A DNA stretch of 64,000 nucleotides from the NCBI GenBank assembly GCA_030064755.1, contig JASJEH010000001.1:35352-99351 (forward strand). Direction: 5' to 3'. The position numbers and the translations under genes are program-made. Shown piece after piece: positions 8,723 to 15,704 of this stretch. The notes below the pieces were generated by a model. That model saw only the letters and a list, made by a program, of their open reading frames with translations. It searched no databases and was not told where the DNA came from. Numbering within the stretch: position 1 is the first letter of the stretch; each line of letters opens with the position of its first letter. This DNA is from Methyloceanibacter sp. Its GTDB lineage: Bacteria > Pseudomonadota > Alphaproteobacteria > Rhizobiales > Methyloligellaceae.

Positions 8723-9478
8723 ATGGGCGGCATTACCACGGACCTCAGGACAGGCCTAGCTTTTTGCACGCGGCTGCCTGTCACAACGGCTTCCGATGGC
8801 CGCCTGTCCGATGCCGCTTGGACCCTTCCCATTGCTGGTGCGGTTGTGGGCTTGATCGGCGCGCTCATCCTGTATGCAGCTCTGGCCCTTGGGGTGCCTC
8901 CATTTGCAGCCGCCACCCTCGCAATCGGCGCGACGGCGCTCACGACCGGGTGCCTGCACGAGGACGGGCTGGCAGACACGGCGGACGGCTTTGGCGGCGG
9001 ACGGGAGCCTTCGCGCGTGCTTGAGATCCTGCGCGATAGCCGGATTGGCACCTACGGCGTCATCGCGCTGATCGTCTCATTTCTGTTGCGCATCGGGACG
9101 GTTGCGAGCTTGGCCGCGTTGGGCGCCTGGCCCGCCATCTTCGCGCTGATCTCCGCGCATACAGGTGCACGGGCCGCGCTGCCACTGTTTATGCGGGCAG
9201 TGCCACGCGCCCGCGACGACGGCCTGTCGGCGGCGGCGGGCCGGCCCAGCGAGGGCGTCGTGGCAGGCGCCGCCGTGATTGGTGTAGCGGTGTCGCTCGT
9301 CTGTCTCGGCTTCGGCACGACGCTCGTGTCCGCGATCTTGGTCGCGGCGGCCCTTACCGTGCTTGCGCGCATGGCGACCCGAAAGATCGGGGGCCAAACT
9401 GGGGATGTGCTCGGCGCCGCGGAACAGGCCGGTGAAATCCTGATCCTGATCACTGCAGCCGCGGTTCTCGCTCCTTGA
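8723..9478 (+). CDS. cobS: Adenosylcobinamide-GDP ribazoletransferase (cobalamin synthase, CobV)
   Basis: FCTRLP, TGCLHEDGLADTADG, RDSRIGTYG and GGQTGDVLGA. Multi-pass hydrophobic protein. Confidence 0.95.
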   Translation: MGGITTDLRTGLAFCTRLPVTTASDGRLSDAAWTLPIAGAVVGLIGALILYAALALGVPPFAAATLAIGATALTTGCLHEDGLADTADGFGGGREPSRVLEILRDSRIGTYGVIALIVSFLLRIGTVASLAALGAWPAIFALISAHTGARAALPLFMRAVPRARDDGLSAAAGRPSEGVVAGAAVIGVAVSLVCLGFGTTLVSAILVAAALTVLARMATRKIGGQTGDVLGAAEQAGEILILITAAAVLAP

Positions 9479-9609
9479 CCGCAGCGGCGATCAAGGTAAC
9501 GAAATCGCTAAGCGGCGTGTAAGACGGCGGAAAGATTGCCGTGCTAGACTGTTCGCGCAATCGAAAGCCAGCAGCCCCTGAGGCGCCCGGCCAGATGGAG
9601 TTCTGACCC

Positions 9610-9888
9610 ATGCGTATCGCGATCGCGGCTCTTGTTGTTCTCGGCGTAGCCTGGTTCGGCGTAGCTCCTGTACATGCCGTGCCACTGACCGGGACCGCCT
9701 CCCACACGCTTGTCGAGGCGACAGGACTGCAGGCGATTGATGTTGCGAAACGCTCGCGAAAAAAGGTGCGGCGTAGCACCACGCGCAAATGCGGGTGGCA
9801 GTGCAAGCGTTACTACCGCCCCTTCCAGTACCGCTATTGGAAGTTCTACTATCCATACGGCGGACCGCTGTTTTACGGACGGCGCTAA
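9610..9888 (+). CDS. Small putative secreted protein with a cationic/aromatic C-terminal half and a CxxxC motif
   Basis: Upstream GGAG. Sec-like signal MRIAIAALVVLGVAWFGVAPVHA. Fills the gap between cobS and the next gene. No family recognised. Confidence 0.7.
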   Translation: MRIAIAALVVLGVAWFGVAPVHAVPLTGTASHTLVEATGLQAIDVAKRSRKKVRRSTTRKCGWQCKRYYRPFQYRYWKFYYPYGGPLFYGRR

Positions 9889-9944
9889 ACCACTTCACGG
9901 GATTGCAATAAAAGGGTGACACCGCACCCAGCCCTTGTGGCAGA

Positions 9945-11909
9945 GTGCGCCGCGTGACGCTGCCAGCTTCCGCCATAACCACCCGCGCCAACGCGCTTTT
10001 CGAGGCCAACCGCACCCGCCCCGGCGCACCGCAGACGCTGCCAGACCGGTTGTTCGTCGTCGATGTGGAGCGTCAGACGGCCACGTTGATCTTGAACGGA
10101 ATGGCCGCGGAGTCCTGGCCTGTCTCAACGGCCCGCAACGGCATCGGCGGCGAGGAGAACTCCTTCAAGACACCACCCGGCTGGCATCGCATCGACCGGA
10201 AGATCGGCGCGGGCGCGGAGTCGGGCGCTGTGTTTTCGTCCCGGGAACCCACAGGCGAGGTTTGGCGCGGCGAGGAAGCTGAGAGCGATCTAATCCTCAC
10301 CCGCATCCTTACGCTGGACGGTCTCGAAGAGGGCGTCAATCGCGGACCGGGTTTCGACTCTCTTGAACGCTACATCTACATCCACGGCTCCAACCACGAA
10401 GCGGAGATCGGGCGTCCCGCTTCGTGTGGCTGCGTCCGGATGAGCAATGCTGATGTGGCGACGCTTTTTGACTTGGCGCAAGAAGGCGACCTCATCCTGA
10501 TCGCGTCGCCCGAAGATCAGGCGGTCCCCAGCACATCATCGGGCCGCTTTCACTATGCGGGGCTCGGCGGCTCGGGCATGAGCGGCATTGCTCAGTTCCA
10601 GGCGATCAAGGGCGGCCGCGTGAGCGGCAGCGACCGGGCCTTCGACCATGGCGAGCGGAGCGCGGTGCGCGCTCAGTTCGAAGCGCTGGGTATCGGCGTG
10701 TACCCTCAAGACGGGAGTGGGATTGGTGAGGACTGCGCGGCCCTTGTGGTCTCGACTGCCGTCGAAGAAAACGTACCAGACGTCGCCACGGCGAGGGCGC
10801 GCGGCGTGCCCATCGTGCATCGCTCGGAGATGCTGGCCCATTTCGTTCGGGCGTACCGGTCCATCGCGGTAACCGGCACAAGCGGAAAGTCCACCGTCAC
10901 GGGAATGACGTTCGAGATCCTGCGCGGGTGCGGGGCCGATCCGTCTGTCATCACGGGCGGAGATCTTCCGGCCCTCCAGGCCGATGGTTTGATCGGCAAT
11001 GCGTATGCGGGCGACAGCGACCTGCTCGTGGTGGAAGCGGACGAGAGCGACGGTTCGTTGGTGCGCTATGCGCCGTCTATTGGGGTCATCCTCAATCTGC
11101 AACGTGACCACAAGGAAACGGATGAAGTTGCAGCCATGTTCGCCACGTTGCGGGCGCGCACGCGCGAAACCTTAGTCGTGGGGGACGATGCGAATCTCGA
11201 TCCGTTCGCTGGTGGCGCTATCCGCTTCGGCCTCAGCGAGCGCGCGGATATCCGCGCGGTCAACGTGGTGCACAGCGCGGCAGGGGCCCGCTTCGAGGTG
11301 AACGGCGTGAGTTTCACGATCCCTGTTCCTGGTGTTCACAACGTCACCAACGCGCTTGCCGCCATTGCCGCATGTGTTGCTGCGGGCCTGCCACTGGAGC
11401 GCATGAGCGGGCCGCTCGCGGGCTTCGCTGGCATCGGACGGCGCTTCCAAACGATCGGCCGCGCATCAGGCATCGAGGTGGTGGACGACTTTGCCCATAA
11501 TGCCGAAAAGATCACCGCGGCGATCCGGACAGCAAAGCTGCGCGGGCGCCGCGTGCTCGCGATCTACCAGCCCCACGGCTATGGGCCGACCCGGTTCCTG
11601 TGGGAGGACTTCGTCCGGACATTCTCGAGCGAACTCTCCGCGGACGACAGGCTGTTTATGCTCGAGGTCTTCTACGCGGGCGGGACCGCCAAACGGGATT
11701 TTTCCGCCGCGGATATCGTCGAAGAGATCGCGGCGACAGGCGCACGGGCTTCCTTCGCGCCGTCACGAGAATGGCTCGCTGAAGCGATCGCGCATGAGGC
11801 GCGTGATGGCGATGTGGTGCTGGTCATGGGTGCGCGCGACCCTTCTCTTACCGCCTTCGCCTGCGGCATTCTCGGCGCAATCAAAGGAGCGGCGCGTACT
11901 CGAGCCTAG
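9945..11909 (+). CDS. Fusion of an N-terminal YkuD-type L,D-transpeptidase domain and a C-terminal MurC/Mpl-like Mur ligase
   Basis: YIYIHG...SCGCVRM (10383-10439), then in frame GLGGSGMS, VTGTSGKST, EADESDGS, GIGRRF and DDFAH. Start uncertain (GTG 9945 or 9954). Confidence 0.85.
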   Translation: MRRVTLPASAITTRANALFEANRTRPGAPQTLPDRLFVVDVERQTATLILNGMAAESWPVSTARNGIGGEENSFKTPPGWHRIDRKIGAGAESGAVFSSREPTGEVWRGEEAESDLILTRILTLDGLEEGVNRGPGFDSLERYIYIHGSNHEAEIGRPASCGCVRMSNADVATLFDLAQEGDLILIASPEDQAVPSTSSGRFHYAGLGGSGMSGIAQFQAIKGGRVSGSDRAFDHGERSAVRAQFEALGIGVYPQDGSGIGEDCAALVVSTAVEENVPDVATARARGVPIVHRSEMLAHFVRAYRSIAVTGTSGKSTVTGMTFEILRGCGADPSVITGGDLPALQADGLIGNAYAGDSDLLVVEADESDGSLVRYAPSIGVILNLQRDHKETDEVAAMFATLRARTRETLVVGDDANLDPFAGGAIRFGLSERADIRAVNVVHSAAGARFEVNGVSFTIPVPGVHNVTNALAAIAACVAAGLPLERMSGPLAGFAGIGRRFQTIGRASGIEVVDDFAHNAEKITAAIRTAKLRGRRVLAIYQPHGYGPTRFLWEDFVRTFSSELSADDRLFMLEVFYAGGTAKRDFSAADIVEEIAATGARASFAPSREWLAEAIAHEARDGDVVLVMGARDPSLTAFACGILGAIKGAARTRA

Positions 11910-11924
11910 CGTAGCGGGGCGGCA

Positions 11925-14900
11925 CTAGTTGCCAAGGAGCCCCGAGAGGAAGTCGTCGACGCCGCTAGCCCGGCGAGGACGGCGAGGGCGCGATTCCGAA
12001 TAGCGGCGCGTCGACGTCGTCTCGGTGAAATCCGCGCTTGCGATCGGCACGTTGAAATGCGCGGGATTCTTGAACAGCTTCGCCGCCATGTGACTGTCAA
12101 TGCCGTAGACATCACCGAATTCGCGGATTGAGCCGTATCCGTCAGCGATCGCCGTATTGTAGGTCATGTGGACTGGAATCTTCCGGCGAAGTGCAATGAC
12201 TTTCGTTTCTCCCTGGGCACGGGCAAACACGTCCTGGACATTGCCCATGGACCACCCCTTGTCCTCCGCAAGCAGGAAGGCCGCGAAGCGGGTCGGCTGA
12301 TTCACACGGATACACCCATGACTCAGCGTCCGCACGCGGTGCCCGAACAACTCTTTCTGGGTCGTGTCGTGCATGTAGATGGCATGCTTGTTCGGGAAAT
12401 TGAACTTGAAGCGGCCAAGCACATTGTGCGGGCCAGGATCCTGCTGGAACGTGTAGGCATGCACGTTCGCCGACTGCCAATCGACTTGGTCGGCATCGAC
12501 CGGTTTGCCGCCCCTGCTAACTTTCAGGCCGTAGCGGCGCAGCATTCTGTTCCGTGACTCGCGCCCCCCAAACAAACCTCCAGACCGCTGTGGTCCGCGA
12601 AGTTTGGGCGCGATGTCCTCTCTCACAATGGTGGGCGGAACCGTCCAGTTCGGATTGAAGACAATGTTCCGCATCGGAGAGGAGAAGAATGCCGTGGCGT
12701 ATTTCGCCTGACCCACAATCGACTTTTCTTCATAGATCTCGCGGCCGTTCTTCAAGACACGGAACTTGAACTCCGGGATGTTGTTCCAGACATGGAAGCT
12801 GCCGAGATCCGAAGGCAGCCAACGCCAGCGCTCCATGTTGAGGACGATGAGCTGGACCATGCGGTCATCATCGGGATTACGGCCAAGATCCTTCGCCGAA
12901 TCCCTGGCGTGAACCAATGCCGCATGGAGGCGCTGATATTGGTCGTTTTGGGGGTGAAGCGACAGGAGCGTCTTGTCCGGCGTTCCAGAGCCCGCAATCT
13001 CCGTCAAGACCGCTTTTGGATCGCGCGCCTTCGGATGGAAGTCGAAGAGCTTATGTGCCTTTGATGGCTTGAGCCGCCCCGTCTGCGCGTGCCGCGCATA
13101 TTTCAAGACTGCCGCGGAGACGGCCAGTTCCGCCTCGGCACGCGCTTCGTCCGTGGTCAGCGTTTTCTCAGTAGAGGGCGTCGCGTAGACACGTGCATCG
13201 AGGCCCCAATCGTTGGCATCGCGAATGGTTGCGATCACCGTCTTGGCCTTGGGTGCCAGGCTGTCGTCGGCCACCCACAGCGGGTCTTCGTCGCGTTCGC
13301 CATACAGCGCCTTGAGGGCCTCAACGTCAGCGGCCGCTAACTTGGGCGCAGAGGCGCCCTCCAACTTGGTCCGGACTGCCTTGATAACCGGATCAACGGG
13401 GGGCGGAGGCGGCGGACCGAGCTCAACAGACTCATCATCTGAACCGTCGTTGCCGGATTTGCCTGCTGCGAGAGGGGGCGTGCCAGGCTTAAGGGCCGCA
13501 AGCTTCGTATCCTCGCCGTCTGCCTTCGCTCCAGGCGGCGGCGACACGTCGAGGACAACGATGGCGTCGTAGGCCCGCGGGTCCAGAACAATCTCTTCGC
13601 TTGGTGCTTCGGTCGTCGCGCGCTGGATGTCAGTGACATCCGCTGCCTCGTTTGATGCGGCGATTCCGTCCGGCTTAGAGGCGGGCGCGATCGAGGCCGT
13701 CACATCACCGTCGCCGTCGGAGGAAGCGTCTTTGACCTGAGCGTCGGACTCCGTGTCGGCCTGTCGTTCCGGCGTATTCGCCGGGCTGATCATGCGCGCT
13801 ATTTCTGGCTTCGGCTCCGGTGCAGGCGGAAGCGATGCGGTGACGATTTCGCCATCCGCTGCGTCGTCTTCGCTGGCCGGGGTCTTCGCGTTGTCAGCGT
13901 CTGCCTTTGTGTCTGTCTTGGTGTCTGCGTCTTTTGAATCTGCCTCAGTGGCGCTGGCGACCTTGCCGTCTTTGTCGTTAGCTTCCTCGGTCTTGCTGTC
14001 AGCGTCGTCGGCGTGGGTTTCCTTGGCGTCCGCCGTCTTTGCGTCGTCGTCTTTGGCCTCGCTGTCGTCGGCGGTCGCGACGTCGGGGCTGTCCGCATCA
14101 GGTTTTGTATCCTTCGCCGTACTCGCCGACCCGTCGGCGTCGGCCGTATCCACCTCGGCTTTGGCCGTACCGTCTGCCTTTGCAGTCTCTGCGGCGTCTT
14201 CTGTCTTGTTCTTCTCTGTCTTGTCCTTGGCATCCGCCGATGCACTGTCGGCTTTCTCTTCCGAACCCGCACCAGCGCTCTTGATGTCGGTGTCTTTCGA
14301 CGGCTCGTCCTGAACGCCGGCGCCGTCCGTGCTCTTGGTGTCGGCCGCCTTCTTATCGTCGGCCGTCGCGGTTTCCGCTGATTTGTCCGAATCAGCTTCA
14401 GCGGCCGCCGACTCTGTCGCGTCGCCCTTCTCGGCCTTGTCTGCATCTTGTTCGGCCGTCTTCGCGGCAGAGCTGTCATCGTCTGCCGCCTGCTCGTCCT
14501 TCGCCGTTTCGGCTTTCTTGGCGTCCGGCTCATCAACAGCGGCGGTCTCTATGTCGGCCGGTTTCGTGTCTTTGACGTCGTCGGAAGTGGTCGACGACGC
14601 GGCCTTGTCCTGACCCTCAGCCTCTGGTGCGCTCTCCGCGTCAGCCGTCTTCGTTTCTGGCGGCGTCTCGTCTTCCGGCTTGGCGTCAGACTTGGCGTCT
14701 GCCGTCGTATCCGTTTCGCCTTCGGACTCTGCGTCCGAATCGGAAGCCGCGACCGCTTTGTCTTCCGCACCGCCAGCGGGCTCATCCGTTTCGGCTGACT
14801 CGGTCTCGGAGGCTTCGGCTTGTTCGGAGTCGCTGCCGGCCGCCTCGTTTTTTGCTGTCTCTTTTGGCTCAGGCGCCGTTTCGTCGGCGCTTTCCTTTAG

Positions 14901-15251
14901 CGCAGGCGCATCGGAATCAGATTGCTTTTCGGCAACACGCGTGGGCGCCGGCAAGGCCATAACGAGGCTTGCCACCGCTACGGTGCCAACCGCCAAATCG
15001 GCTTGGCTGTTCTTTGCAACGTCTGGAGAAACGGCCTTGGTGGACACGGCCGCGAACGTCCGGTCGGGATTGCGAATCGGCGCAACAGGCCGGGCCCGAC
15101 GCGACCTCTTGCGCTTGACGACCTTCTTACCGGTAAAGAGGCCGGGCACGCGGAACTCCGCCGACGCCGTCGTGGGAACGGCGCTCGTTCCGGCCCCGAC
15201 AGCCAAAAAGGCCAACGTTGTCAGCCCGATAATGGCAATTCGTCCGCTCAT
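11925..15251 (-). CDS. YcbB/LdtD-like L,D-transpeptidase with Sec signal and a very long acidic low-complexity linker
   Basis: LNMERWRWLP, NIPEF, FNPNWTVPPTI, QDPGPHNVLGRFKF, IYMHDT and LSHGCIRV. Signal MSGRIAIIG...TASA. Confidence 0.88.
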   Translation of the reverse strand: MSGRIAIIGLTTLAFLAVGAGTSAVPTTASAEFRVPGLFTGKKVVKRKRSRRARPVAPIRNPDRTFAAVSTKAVSPDVAKNSQADLAVGTVAVASLVMALPAPTRVAEKQSDSDAPALKESADETAPEPKETAKNEAAGSDSEQAEASETESAETDEPAGGAEDKAVAASDSDAESEGETDTTADAKSDAKPEDETPPETKTADAESAPEAEGQDKAASSTTSDDVKDTKPADIETAAVDEPDAKKAETAKDEQAADDDSSAAKTAEQDADKAEKGDATESAAAEADSDKSAETATADDKKAADTKSTDGAGVQDEPSKDTDIKSAGAGSEEKADSASADAKDKTEKNKTEDAAETAKADGTAKAEVDTADADGSASTAKDTKPDADSPDVATADDSEAKDDDAKTADAKETHADDADSKTEEANDKDGKVASATEADSKDADTKTDTKADADNAKTPASEDDAADGEIVTASLPPAPEPKPEIARMISPANTPERQADTESDAQVKDASSDGDGDVTASIAPASKPDGIAASNEAADVTDIQRATTEAPSEEIVLDPRAYDAIVVLDVSPPPGAKADGEDTKLAALKPGTPPLAAGKSGNDGSDDESVELGPPPPPPVDPVIKAVRTKLEGASAPKLAAADVEALKALYGERDEDPLWVADDSLAPKAKTVIATIRDANDWGLDARVYATPSTEKTLTTDEARAEAELAVSAAVLKYARHAQTGRLKPSKAHKLFDFHPKARDPKAVLTEIAGSGTPDKTLLSLHPQNDQYQRLHAALVHARDSAKDLGRNPDDDRMVQLIVLNMERWRWLPSDLGSFHVWNNIPEFKFRVLKNGREIYEEKSIVGQAKYATAFFSSPMRNIVFNPNWTVPPTIVREDIAPKLRGPQRSGGLFGGRESRNRMLRRYGLKVSRGGKPVDADQVDWQSANVHAYTFQQDPGPHNVLGRFKFNFPNKHAIYMHDTTQKELFGHRVRTLSHGCIRVNQPTRFAAFLLAEDKGWSMGNVQDVFARAQGETKVIALRRKIPVHMTYNTAIADGYGSIREFGDVYGIDSHMAAKLFKNPAHFNVPIASADFTETTSTRRYSESRPRRPRRASGVDDFLSGLLGN

Positions 15252-15704
15252 TCGTTGTCCCTCAGAGCCTCCGCGCGTCGTCCCCATATGTAAGCGGCGA
15301 CTTGGTGAGTTTGGAGAGGATCGCGCAAGATCCTAAACATAGTGGCAAAAAGGGCAGTTCCTTGGCTAATAGGACGTGACGCATCAAAAATGTGCCAGCC
15401 TTGTATCTTTCGACGGTTTCACGGCGGTGCCCCCAAGGTGGCGACAGTCGACCTGATGATTTCGTTGCCCCGCTGCCCAAAGATTCGGCATCTGCGCGGA
15501 AATGACCTGGATATCGCCGTGAACTCGATTTGATCGATACACCCTCGGGTGCAATACTTCCTGCGTTCAACGCAATTCCAAGTCCTTAAGAGCGCTGCTG
15601 CCGACGTAAGCGAAGCCTCGCCAGCGCGGCCCCATTCTTGCTTAAATCTTGGCGTTGTCCTTTTTGGCCCGCCGAAACCTTCACCGATAGAGAGGCATCA
15701 GCGT

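What the first reader, a model, noticed from the sequence alone, without database searches (positions are those of the whole stretch)
9945..11909. In-frame fusion of an L,D-transpeptidase domain to a MurC-like ligase, with no export signal
Seen: one uninterrupted 654-aa ORF. The first ~180 aa carry an intact YkuD catalytic set (H-G...C-x-R, with His-to-Cys spacing of 16 and Arg at Cys+2, as in B. subtilis YkuD H123/C139/R141). A short linker (SPEDQAVPSTSSG) leads into a complete three-domain Mur ligase. There is no hydrophobic signal peptide or TM helix. Known: L,D-transpeptidases act on peptidoglycan (PG) outside the cytoplasm, whereas Mur ligases need cytoplasmic ATP and UDP-MurNAc. Inference: this may be a cytoplasmic PG-recycling or precursor-editing enzyme. 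The Cys domain could trim or exchange the terminal residue of imported stem peptides (L,D-carboxypeptidase-like or non-canonical D-amino-acid exchange), and the ligase could reattach the product to UDP-MurNAc. I know of no characterised enzyme with this architecture. It converges on a second L,D-transpeptidase gene only 15 bp away.
Basis: partly seen in the sequence, partly recalled or inferred. Interest (0 to 1): 0.85.

Follow-up and report, generated by a model that had tools for sequence, protein, structure and literature searches.

The report
Cell-wall peptide trimmer fused to ligase
This real, conserved gene joins a cytoplasmic enzyme that probably trims recycled cell-wall peptides to an unusual MurC-like ligase that probably re-attaches them, which points to an undescribed peptide-recycling ligase family in bacteria thought to lack that route.

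Summary
Window 9945-11909 (+) is one 654-aa ORF (651 aa from GTG 9954) with YkuD, Mur_ligase, Mur_ligase_M and Mur_ligase_C domains, no export signal, and a convergent YcbB-type L,D-transpeptidase 15 bp away.

It is not an artefact. More than 120 protein clusters carry all four domains, 7 of 8 sampled Methyloceanibacter species keep it intact, and it recurs in other phyla.

The N-terminal half resembles ElsL, the cytoplasmic YkuD-family L,D-carboxypeptidase of Acinetobacter. The ligase is neither the housekeeping MurC, which sits in the dcw cluster elsewhere, nor Mpl. It belongs to a large MurC-like subfamily in which three of MurC's five L-Ala-binding residues are replaced (H→N, R→G, R→P).

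Members of this subfamily are tied to L,D-carboxypeptidases of two unrelated folds:
- fused to YkuD (here);
- fused to LdcA/S66 (one metagenomic protein);
- divergently adjacent to ldcA in 12 of 12 alphaproteobacterial genomes that have MurC but no Mpl.

Best reading (about 0.7): a two-step recycling enzyme that trims tetrapeptide to tripeptide, then ligates it to UDP-MurNAc. No biochemistry exists, and I found no paper describing it. This scan has flagged the same fusion before on other genomes.

The parts
9945..11909 (+). Whole fusion gene (654 aa; alternative GTG start at 9954 gives 651 aa)
10047..10502 (+). YkuD / ElsL-like domain, residues 35-186
   Evidence: Pfam PF03734 66.3 bits. NCBIfam ElsL NF040925 139.9 bits, model positions 9-159 of 164.
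10383..10439 (+). Catalytic stretch H147...S160-C-G162-C163-V-R165
   Evidence: H147, S160, G162 and C163 invariant, R165 nearly invariant, in A1 and A2. Sequence printed.
10506..10544 (+). Inter-domain linker SPEDQAVPSTSSG (residues 188-200)
   Evidence: Variable in the alignment.
10548..10859 (+). Mur ligase N-terminal (UDP-sugar binding) domain, residues 202-305, with GLGGSGMS motif
   Evidence: PF01225 56.8 bits; invariants
10869..11375 (+). Mur ligase middle (ATP) domain, residues 309-477, with P-loop GTSGKS 311-316 and EADESD 364-369
   Evidence: PF08245 58 bits; invariants
11439..11837 (+). Mur ligase C-terminal (incoming amino acid/peptide) domain, residues 499-631
   Evidence: PF02875 71.3 bits
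11484..11510 (+). Subfamily signature DDFAHNAEK (514-522). N519 replaces the MurC His and K522 the MurC Glu.
11568..11594 (+). Subfamily signature QPHGYGPTR (542-550). G545 and P548 replace the two MurC L-Ala-binding Arg.
   Evidence: residue roles from PMC3060825
11925..15287 (-). Convergent YcbB/LdtD-type exported L,D-transpeptidase, a conserved neighbour across the genus
9610..9888 (+). Small secreted basic/aromatic peptide gene 56 bp upstream on the same strand. Conserved upstream neighbour in 4 of 5 genus genomes; link to the fusion unknown.

Best explanation
The gene encodes a cytoplasmic, bifunctional enzyme of the peptide arm of peptidoglycan recycling.
1. Muropeptides enter through AmpG and are taken apart by NagZ- and AmpD-type enzymes. 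These genes are shown present in this genome.
2. [quoted passage not shown]
3. The MurC-derived ligase uses ATP to join that tripeptide to UDP-MurNAc, the reaction done by Mpl in gammaproteobacteria (inferred). MurF can then complete the precursor.

Fusion, or tight gene pairing in other lineages, would keep trimming and ligation stoichiometric. That would stop untrimmed tetrapeptide from being loaded onto UDP-MurNAc, which is the known toxic outcome in ldcA and elsL mutants.

Shown: architecture, conservation, lack of export signal, altered substrate pocket, genomic association, and genome inventory. Inferred: both activities, the substrates, and the order of steps.
For: 1. Real and conserved. 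More than 120 clusters at 69-100% identity carry all four domains. Seven of 8 sampled species of the genus have an intact 660-697-aa frame. Distant fusions exist: P0122 (61% identity) and P0125 from a Chitinispirillaceae MAG (47%). Atlas clusters of YkuD+Mur fusions are commonest in Thermodesulfobacteriota and Pseudomonadota.
2. The YkuD half matches the ElsL model at E=6e-41 over nearly its full length, against about 18 bits for periplasmic Ldt models. ElsL is an experimentally shown cytoplasmic L,D-carboxypeptidase whose loss is toxic through Mpl (PMC8649774).
3. The genome has a canonical murC in its dcw cluster (497.5 bits, over cut-off) and nothing over the Mpl cut-off. No Peptidase_S66 LdcA was found.
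4. The ligase belongs to a subfamily with DD[FY]AHN.xK and QPHG[FY]xP motifs in nearly all full-length proteins among the 150 top representatives; the second motif matched my strict pattern in about two thirds of them. Of the five HiMurC residues that bind the incoming L-Ala (PMC3060825), His348, Arg377 and Arg380 are N, G and P in 58 of 58 subfamily rows. They are H, R and R in 15 of 15 MurC rows. Mpl has also lost both Arg, with S and M (PDB alignments).
5. Association with L,D-carboxypeptidases of two unrelated folds.
   - P0263 is a subfamily ligase fused C-terminally to Peptidase_S66 + S66C, next to an SLT lytic transglycosylase.
   - All 12 standalone subfamily ligases found in the phylum-level sample, all alphaproteobacterial, have a divergent S66 ldcA gene next door.
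   - Five of those genomes, all complete, each have a canonical MurC and no Mpl.
   - The nearest standalone relative (P0126/P0275) has a separate YkuD ORF overlapping the ligase start.
6. Tree: proteobacterial MurC plus Mpl form one clade (SH-aLRT 99) that excludes every subfamily row.
7. Upstream steps are present: AmpG (487 bits, over cut-off), two Amidase_2 genes and two GH3 genes.
8. The AF2 model (pLDDT 82.4) has a ligase part that superposes on the HiMurC product complex 1p3d (TM 0.88 by target, rmsd 2.4 A), so the catalytic scaffold is intact.
Against: - No enzymatic, genetic or metabolite data exist for any member.
- The ElsL match (139.9 bits) is below that model's strict cut-off of 270, so this is an ElsL relative, not a demonstrated ElsL equivalent.
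- Some standalone subfamily ligases have no carboxypeptidase gene nearby (P0124, P0138), so the coupling is frequent, not universal.
- AnmK was not found in this genome or in 4 of 5 relatives, so the sugar arm of recycling looks incomplete.
- The tree used a quick search and included only proteobacterial MurC. Its deep branching is unresolved and the MurD outgroup branch is very long.
- Substrate identity (tri- versus tetrapeptide, free versus sugar-linked) cannot be read from sequence.
Confidence: 0.7

Rival explanations
1. Same two activities in the reverse order. The ligase loads the tetrapeptide (or any stem peptide) onto UDP-MurNAc, and the YkuD domain then trims UDP-MurNAc-tetrapeptide to the tripeptide form.
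For: Mpl accepts tetra- and pentapeptides, though less efficiently (PMC3060825). From my own knowledge, E. coli LdcA acts on nucleotide-linked and free tetrapeptides. The fusion fits either order.
Against: ElsL is proposed to act on imported anhydro-MurNAc-tetrapeptide before ligation (PMC8649774). Nothing in the sequence favours this order.
Confidence: 0.1
2. The ligase is a second MurC isozyme that adds a single, different amino acid (for example Gly or L-Ser) to UDP-MurNAc, and the YkuD domain has an unrelated or regulatory role.
For: The best family and fold matches are MurC: TIGR01082 at 306.5 bits and 1p3d at TM 0.88.
Against: - The score is below the MurC cut-off of 335.1.
- Both carboxylate-binding Arg are lost, as in Mpl.
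- The repeated fusion or adjacency to two unrelated L,D-carboxypeptidase families is unexplained by a single-amino-acid ligase.
Confidence: 0.07
3. Cytoplasmic precursor editing. The YkuD domain acts as a transpeptidase that exchanges the terminal residue of stem peptides for non-canonical D-amino acids, and the ligase loads the edited peptide onto UDP-MurNAc.
For: From my own knowledge, periplasmic YkuD enzymes can catalyse D-amino-acid exchange. The catalytic His/Cys/Arg set is intact.
Against: In other lineages the partner of the same ligase subfamily is an S66 serine carboxypeptidase (LdcA type), which is not known to do exchange. The closest characterised relative, ElsL, is a carboxypeptidase.
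Confidence: 0.06
4. Annotation or assembly artefact: two adjacent genes wrongly joined, or a decaying pseudogene.
For: One genus member (G569, Methyloceanibacter stevinii) has the two halves in different frames. A related lineage has two overlapping ORFs.
Against: The frame is intact in this genome, in 7 of 8 sampled congeners and in more than 120 clusters. Catalytic residues of both halves are invariant or nearly so. The G569 assembly also splits cobT, which suggests indel errors there.
Confidence: 0.02

Closest known systems
ElsL (LdtK) of Acinetobacter baumannii, cytoplasmic YkuD-family L,D-carboxypeptidase (NCBIfam NF040925; PMC8649774)
   Same: Single YkuD domain without signal peptide or peptidoglycan-binding domain, catalytic Cys motif, and a model match of E=6e-41 over positions 9-159 of 164. 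Predicted to feed a UDP-MurNAc peptide ligase.
   Different: It scores 139.9 bits against a cut-off of 270, so it is a relative, not an equivalog. Here it is covalently fused to the ligase, whereas ElsL is a standalone protein of about 165 aa working with a separate canonical Mpl.
Mpl, UDP-MurNAc:L-Ala-gamma-D-Glu-mDAP ligase (TIGR01081; E. coli b4233; Psychrobacter structure 3hn7)
   Same: Three-domain Mur ligase paralogous to MurC, encoded outside the dcw cluster, with both MurC L-Ala-binding Arg lost, and functionally tied to an L,D-carboxypeptidase.
   Different: It scores only 106.5 bits against a cut-off of 388.7. In the tree Mpl groups with proteobacterial MurC and excludes this subfamily. 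The replacement residues differ (G/P here, S/M in Mpl). Fold match to 3hn7 is TM 0.69, against 0.88 for MurC.
MurC, UDP-MurNAc:L-alanine ligase (TIGR01082; H. influenzae 1p3d)
   Same: Best sequence and fold match. UDP-binding GxGGxGMS, P-loop, EADESD and DH motifs are intact.
   Different: It falls below the family cut-off (306.5 vs 335.1). It lacks His348, Arg377 and Arg380 equivalents. It is not in the dcw cluster, and the genome has a separate canonical MurC (497.5 bits).
LdcA (Peptidase_S66) with Mpl, the classical recycling pair of E. coli
   Same: The same proposed two-step logic: trim tetrapeptide, then ligate tripeptide. In 12 alphaproteobacterial genomes an S66 ldcA gene sits beside a ligase of this subfamily, and P0263 fuses the two.
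   Different: In this window the carboxypeptidase is of the unrelated YkuD fold, and the ligase is not an Mpl ortholog.

Membership tests
YkuD (Pfam PF03734) | Profile match above the gathering score | tested here: met
   66.3 bits vs 23.4, residues 35-186 covering profile positions 2-146 of 146
YkuD (Pfam PF03734) | Catalytic His ... (S/T)xGC(x)R motif | tested here: met
   H147, S160, G162 and C163 invariant, R165 nearly invariant, in 39 fusions
ElsL cytoplasmic L,D-carboxypeptidase (NF040925) | Score over the curated cut-off | tested here: not met
   139.9 bits vs 270. It is still by far the best YkuD-type model, with periplasmic Ldt models at about 18 bits.
ElsL cytoplasmic L,D-carboxypeptidase (NF040925) | No export signal (cytoplasmic location) | tested here: met
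   Stop 11 codons upstream and no hydrophobic N-terminal segment. Localisation itself was not measured.
ElsL cytoplasmic L,D-carboxypeptidase (NF040925) | L,D-carboxypeptidase activity on tetrapeptide stems | not testable with these tools
   Needs an enzyme assay
MurC (TIGR01082) | Score over the curated cut-off | tested here: not met
   306.5 vs 335.1 bits. The genome's dcw-cluster MurC scores 497.5.
MurC (TIGR01082) | L-Ala-binding residues (HiMurC Tyr346, His348, His376, Arg377, Arg380) | tested here: not met
   His348 to N519, Arg377 to G545 and Arg380 to P548, in 58 of 58 subfamily rows. Residue list from PMC3060825. His376 (H544) and an aromatic at 346 (F516) are kept.
MurC (TIGR01082) | Three-domain Mur ligase fold with UDP and ATP sites | tested here: met
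   Pfam domains. AF2 model vs 1p3d: TM 0.88 by target, rmsd 2.4 A.
Mpl (TIGR01081) | Score over the curated cut-off | tested here: not met
   106.5 vs 388.7 bits. True Mpl found in 48 of 61 gammaproteobacterial genomes with the same model.
Mpl (TIGR01081) | Placement inside the Mpl clade | tested here: not met
   The Mpl clade (100) groups with MurC (99) and excludes all subfamily rows
Mpl (TIGR01081) | ATP-dependent ligation of tripeptide to UDP-MurNAc | not testable with these tools
   Needs an enzyme assay. Indirect support comes from carboxypeptidase fusion and adjacency.

The most novel reading that the evidence does not exclude
The YkuD domain does not simply trim. It performs a transpeptidase-type exchange of the terminal residue in the cytoplasm, and the ligase loads the edited peptides onto UDP-MurNAc. 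The cell would then make chemically altered peptidoglycan precursors from recycled material, a cytoplasmic precursor-editing route with no known counterpart.
Probability: 0.06. Interest if true: 0.85.

Novelty: new variant of a known kind. Interest (0 to 1): 0.62.

Why it matters
Current accounts state that Caulobacter and Agrobacterium lack LdcA and Mpl, that many other species lack both, and that such bacteria therefore degrade recycled stem peptides rather than re-using them (PMC13046382, PMC9790009, PMC11980594).

This evidence points to a third family of UDP-MurNAc ligases, derived from MurC, not orthologous to Mpl, and repeatedly coupled to L,D-carboxypeptidases. If it is a peptide ligase, direct peptide recycling is more widespread than thought, and the distribution maps of the pathway need redrawing.

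The fusions also give a ready-made, testable functional assignment for thousands of proteins now annotated as 'UDP-MurNAc--alanine ligase', 'glutamate ligase domain-containing protein' or 'L,D-transpeptidase family protein'. The fusion offers a natural system to study how cells avoid the toxic loading of tetrapeptides.

Tried and rejected
- Artefact or frameshift: rejected by conservation. The single split copy (G569) lies in an assembly that also splits cobT.
- Upstream start with signal peptide: rejected.
- Housekeeping MurC: rejected. The canonical murC is in the dcw cluster on contig C75.
- Mpl ortholog: rejected by HMM score and tree.
- Promoter/terminator scan of 9400-12100: nothing above shuffled expectation.
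- Neighbourhoods of standalone ligases P0124, P0138 and P0141: no carboxypeptidase nearby, or the contig was too short. Coupling is therefore not universal.
- Literature searches for YkuD + Mur ligase fusion, LD-carboxypeptidase + Mur ligase + fused, murein peptide ligase + MurC + paralog, and recycling papers: no description of the fusion or the ligase subfamily. The ElsL paper does not mention it.
- The domain query against the protein database did not reach Acinetobacter ElsL itself, because closer standalone or truncated relatives filled the list. The ElsL link therefore rests on the NCBIfam profile.
- The AF2 output gives no inter-domain error estimate, so I could not judge whether the two active sites face each other.
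- Unpublished genomes: one of the two other class-level hits to the YkuD domain (G040) and one genome in the Mpl tally (G982) are unpublished. No conclusion depends on them.
Full report
**Observation.** Window 9945-11909 (+) is one uninterrupted ORF of 654 aa starting at GTG. A second GTG at 9954 gives the 651-aa version held in the protein database.

Pfam places YkuD at 35-186, Mur_ligase at 202-305, Mur_ligase_M at 309-477 and Mur_ligase_C at 499-631, all over their gathering scores. The catalytic stretch reads IHGSNHEAEIGRPASCGCVRM. That gives H147, C163 (spacing 16) and R165 (Cys+2), followed by the linker SPEDQAVPSTSSG.

An in-frame stop lies 11 codons upstream. The first 60 residues reach a hydropathy of only 0.88, against 2.46 for the neighbouring exported protein, so there is no room for a signal peptide and no sign of one. 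The convergent gene 15 bp away (11925-15287, -) has Scaffold + YkuD domains of the YcbB/LdtD type.

**Is it real?** A word-indexed search returned at least 120 clusters at 69-100% identity, all with the four domains, from Methyloceanibacter and related MAGs.

- In species-representative genomes, the ElsL-like domain was found in 8 of 8 other members of the window's genus and in none of 292 other genomes of the order. G569 is M. stevinii by P0279, which identifies the genus as Methyloceanibacter.
- In a class-level sample the domain turned up in only 2 of 400 genomes apart from the window's own. One of those, G040, is an unpublished genome, and nothing rests on it.
- Seven of the eight congeners have open frames of 660-697 aa. 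The eighth (G569) has the halves in different frames, but cobT is also split in that assembly, so indel errors are likely.
- The exhaustive representative search found more distant fusions: P0122 (61%), and P0125 (47%) from a Chitinispirillaceae MAG of another phylum.
- The ESM Atlas holds YkuD+Mur clusters commonest in Thermodesulfobacteriota.
- Catalytic and nucleotide-binding residues of both halves are invariant or nearly so across 39 fusions down to 44% identity.

**The N-terminal half.** Its best curated model is ElsL (NF040925), at 139.9 bits, E=6e-41, covering model positions 9-159 of 164. Periplasmic L,D-transpeptidase models score about 18 bits.

ElsL is the cytoplasmic YkuD-family L,D-carboxypeptidase of A. 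baumannii. Its loss is toxic because Mpl then re-uses untrimmed tetrapeptides, and mpl or ampG null mutations suppress the defect (PMC8649774). The score is below the model's strict cut-off of 270, so I call this domain ElsL-like, not ElsL.

**The ligase half.**
- The genome has a canonical murC in its dcw cluster on another contig (497.5 bits; cut-off 335.1), next to other Mur ligase genes. The fusion's ligase scores 306.5-307.8, below the cut-off.
- Nothing in the genome reaches the Mpl cut-off, and no Peptidase_S66 LdcA was found.
- The 150 best 50%-identity representatives score 284-808 bits against the fusion. The genome's own MurC scores 186 and solved MurC structures about 170-200.
- Nearly all full-length proteins among these representatives carry DD[FY]AHN.xK, and QPHG[FY]xP[TL][RK] matched my strict pattern in about two thirds of them. 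Solved MurCs read DDY.HHP.E and QPH[RTL]Y[ST]RT.
- The Mpl structure paper lists the HiMurC residues that hold the incoming L-Ala as Tyr346, His348, His376, Arg377 and Arg380 (PMC3060825). In a joint alignment, the positions of His348, Arg377 and Arg380 are N, G and P in 58 of 58 subfamily rows. They are H, R and R in 15 of 15 proteobacterial MurC rows, and H, S and M in 14 of 14 Mpl rows. Like Mpl, the subfamily has lost both arginines.
- It also has a private invariant Arg (R631) where MurC and Mpl have Gly.
- A quick maximum-likelihood tree puts proteobacterial MurC (95) and Mpl (100) together in a clade (99) that excludes every subfamily row.
- The AF2 model (mean pLDDT 82.4) has a ligase part that fits the HiMurC product complex 1p3d at TM 0.88 by target, against 0.69 for Mpl 3hn7. 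The loops holding G545-P548 and G580 are its least confident parts.

**Genomic association, the key evidence.** The same ligase subfamily is coupled to L,D-carboxypeptidases of two unrelated folds.

- P0263 (742 aa) is a subfamily ligase (QPHGFAPTK) fused at its C-terminus to Peptidase_S66 + S66C, the LdcA family. It is encoded beside an SLT lytic transglycosylase.
- In a phylum-level sample, 12 genomes, all alphaproteobacterial and from four families, have a standalone subfamily ligase (278-336 bits, QPHG[FY]GPL). In all 12 an S66 ldcA gene lies next to it, divergently transcribed.
- Five of these genomes, all complete, each have a canonical MurC (515-535 bits) and no Mpl over cut-off. True Mpl is present in 48 of 61 sampled gammaproteobacteria (one of these genomes, G982, is unpublished).
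- The nearest standalone relative of the Methyloceanibacter ligase (P0126/P0275) has a separate YkuD ORF whose end overlaps the ligase start in another frame, in two independent assemblies.

Coupling is not universal: P0124 and P0138 have no such neighbour.

In the tree the YkuD fusions and the LdcA-associated ligases fall in different subclades. The Methyloceanibacter gene is therefore not a close relative of the other alphaproteobacterial ligases and was probably acquired laterally.

**Context in this organism.**
- AmpG is present (487 bits, over cut-off), as are two Amidase_2 genes and two GH3 (NagZ-type) genes.
- AnmK was not found here (genome 90.6% complete) or in 4 of 5 near-complete relatives. 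The peptide arm of recycling looks better equipped than the MurNAc arm.
- The order cobT, cobS, small secreted peptide, fusion, then a convergent YcbB-type L,D-transpeptidase is kept in four congeners. The fifth keeps the fusion and the convergent transpeptidase.

**Mechanism.** I commit, at about 0.7, to a two-step cytoplasmic recycling enzyme. The ElsL-like domain trims tetrapeptide to tripeptide, and the MurC-derived ligase joins the tripeptide to UDP-MurNAc, acting as a non-orthologous replacement of Mpl.

Fusion or tight pairing would prevent loading of untrimmed tetrapeptide, the known toxic event in ldcA and elsL mutants. The order of steps, the exact substrates and both activities are inferred.

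Rivals: reverse order (0.10), a MurC isozyme for another single amino acid (0.07), cytoplasmic exchange or editing (0.06), and artefact (0.02).

**Comparison and novelty.** The protein works like ElsL plus Mpl, but it fails the curated membership tests for ElsL, MurC and Mpl.

In the searched library (PMC open-access papers and bioRxiv) I found no paper describing the fusion or the ligase subfamily. Recent papers state that Caulobacter and Agrobacterium lack LdcA and Mpl and probably degrade the peptides. NCBI names for these proteins are generic.

This scan has already flagged the same fusion on other genomes, and follow-up agents reached the same reading (e1-4197681, e1-1481390). I reached mine from my own tests.

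I rate this a new variant of a known kind: a known pathway logic carried out by a new ligase family and a new architecture.

Noticed in passing
window 9610-9888 (+): A small secreted peptide (signal peptide, then a Lys/Arg/aromatic-rich tail with CxxxC) lies 56 bp upstream of the fusion. It is conserved at 48-68% identity in the same position in 4 of 5 congeners. Function unknown.
   Followed up: partly
window 11925-15287 (-): The YcbB/LdtD-type L,D-transpeptidase has a roughly 500-aa acidic low-complexity region between signal peptide and scaffold domain. Its C-terminal catalytic part is conserved (44-82% identity) and convergent with the fusion in all five congeners checked, while the N-terminal part is poorly conserved. 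The conserved pairing recalls the elsL-ldtAb genetic interaction in A. baumannii.
   Followed up: partly
whole genome G000 and relatives G690, G531, G440, G569: AnmK (PF03702) was not found in this genome or in 4 of 5 congeners, although AmpG was found in this genome and NagZ-type and AmpD-type genes in this genome and the four congeners checked. The anhydro-MurNAc arm of recycling may be missing or replaced.
   Followed up: partly
L039:3239-5467 (Logan ERR11636065 contig): A subfamily ligase fused C-terminally to an LdcA-type (Peptidase_S66) carboxypeptidase lies divergent from an SLT lytic transglycosylase gene. It mirrors the window's fusion with an unrelated carboxypeptidase fold.
   Followed up: partly
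L101 (G569:C10:374000-391000): In Methyloceanibacter stevinii both the fusion gene and cobT are split by frame changes, which suggests indel errors in that assembly rather than pseudogenes.
   Followed up: no
L093:4430-6449 and L094 (GCA_029940435.1, GCA_029935695.1): A two-gene form: a YkuD ORF whose stop (5014) overlaps the called start of the ligase (5001) in another frame. It sits next to a Pta/AckA-type pair, as also occurs elsewhere in this window.
   Followed up: partly
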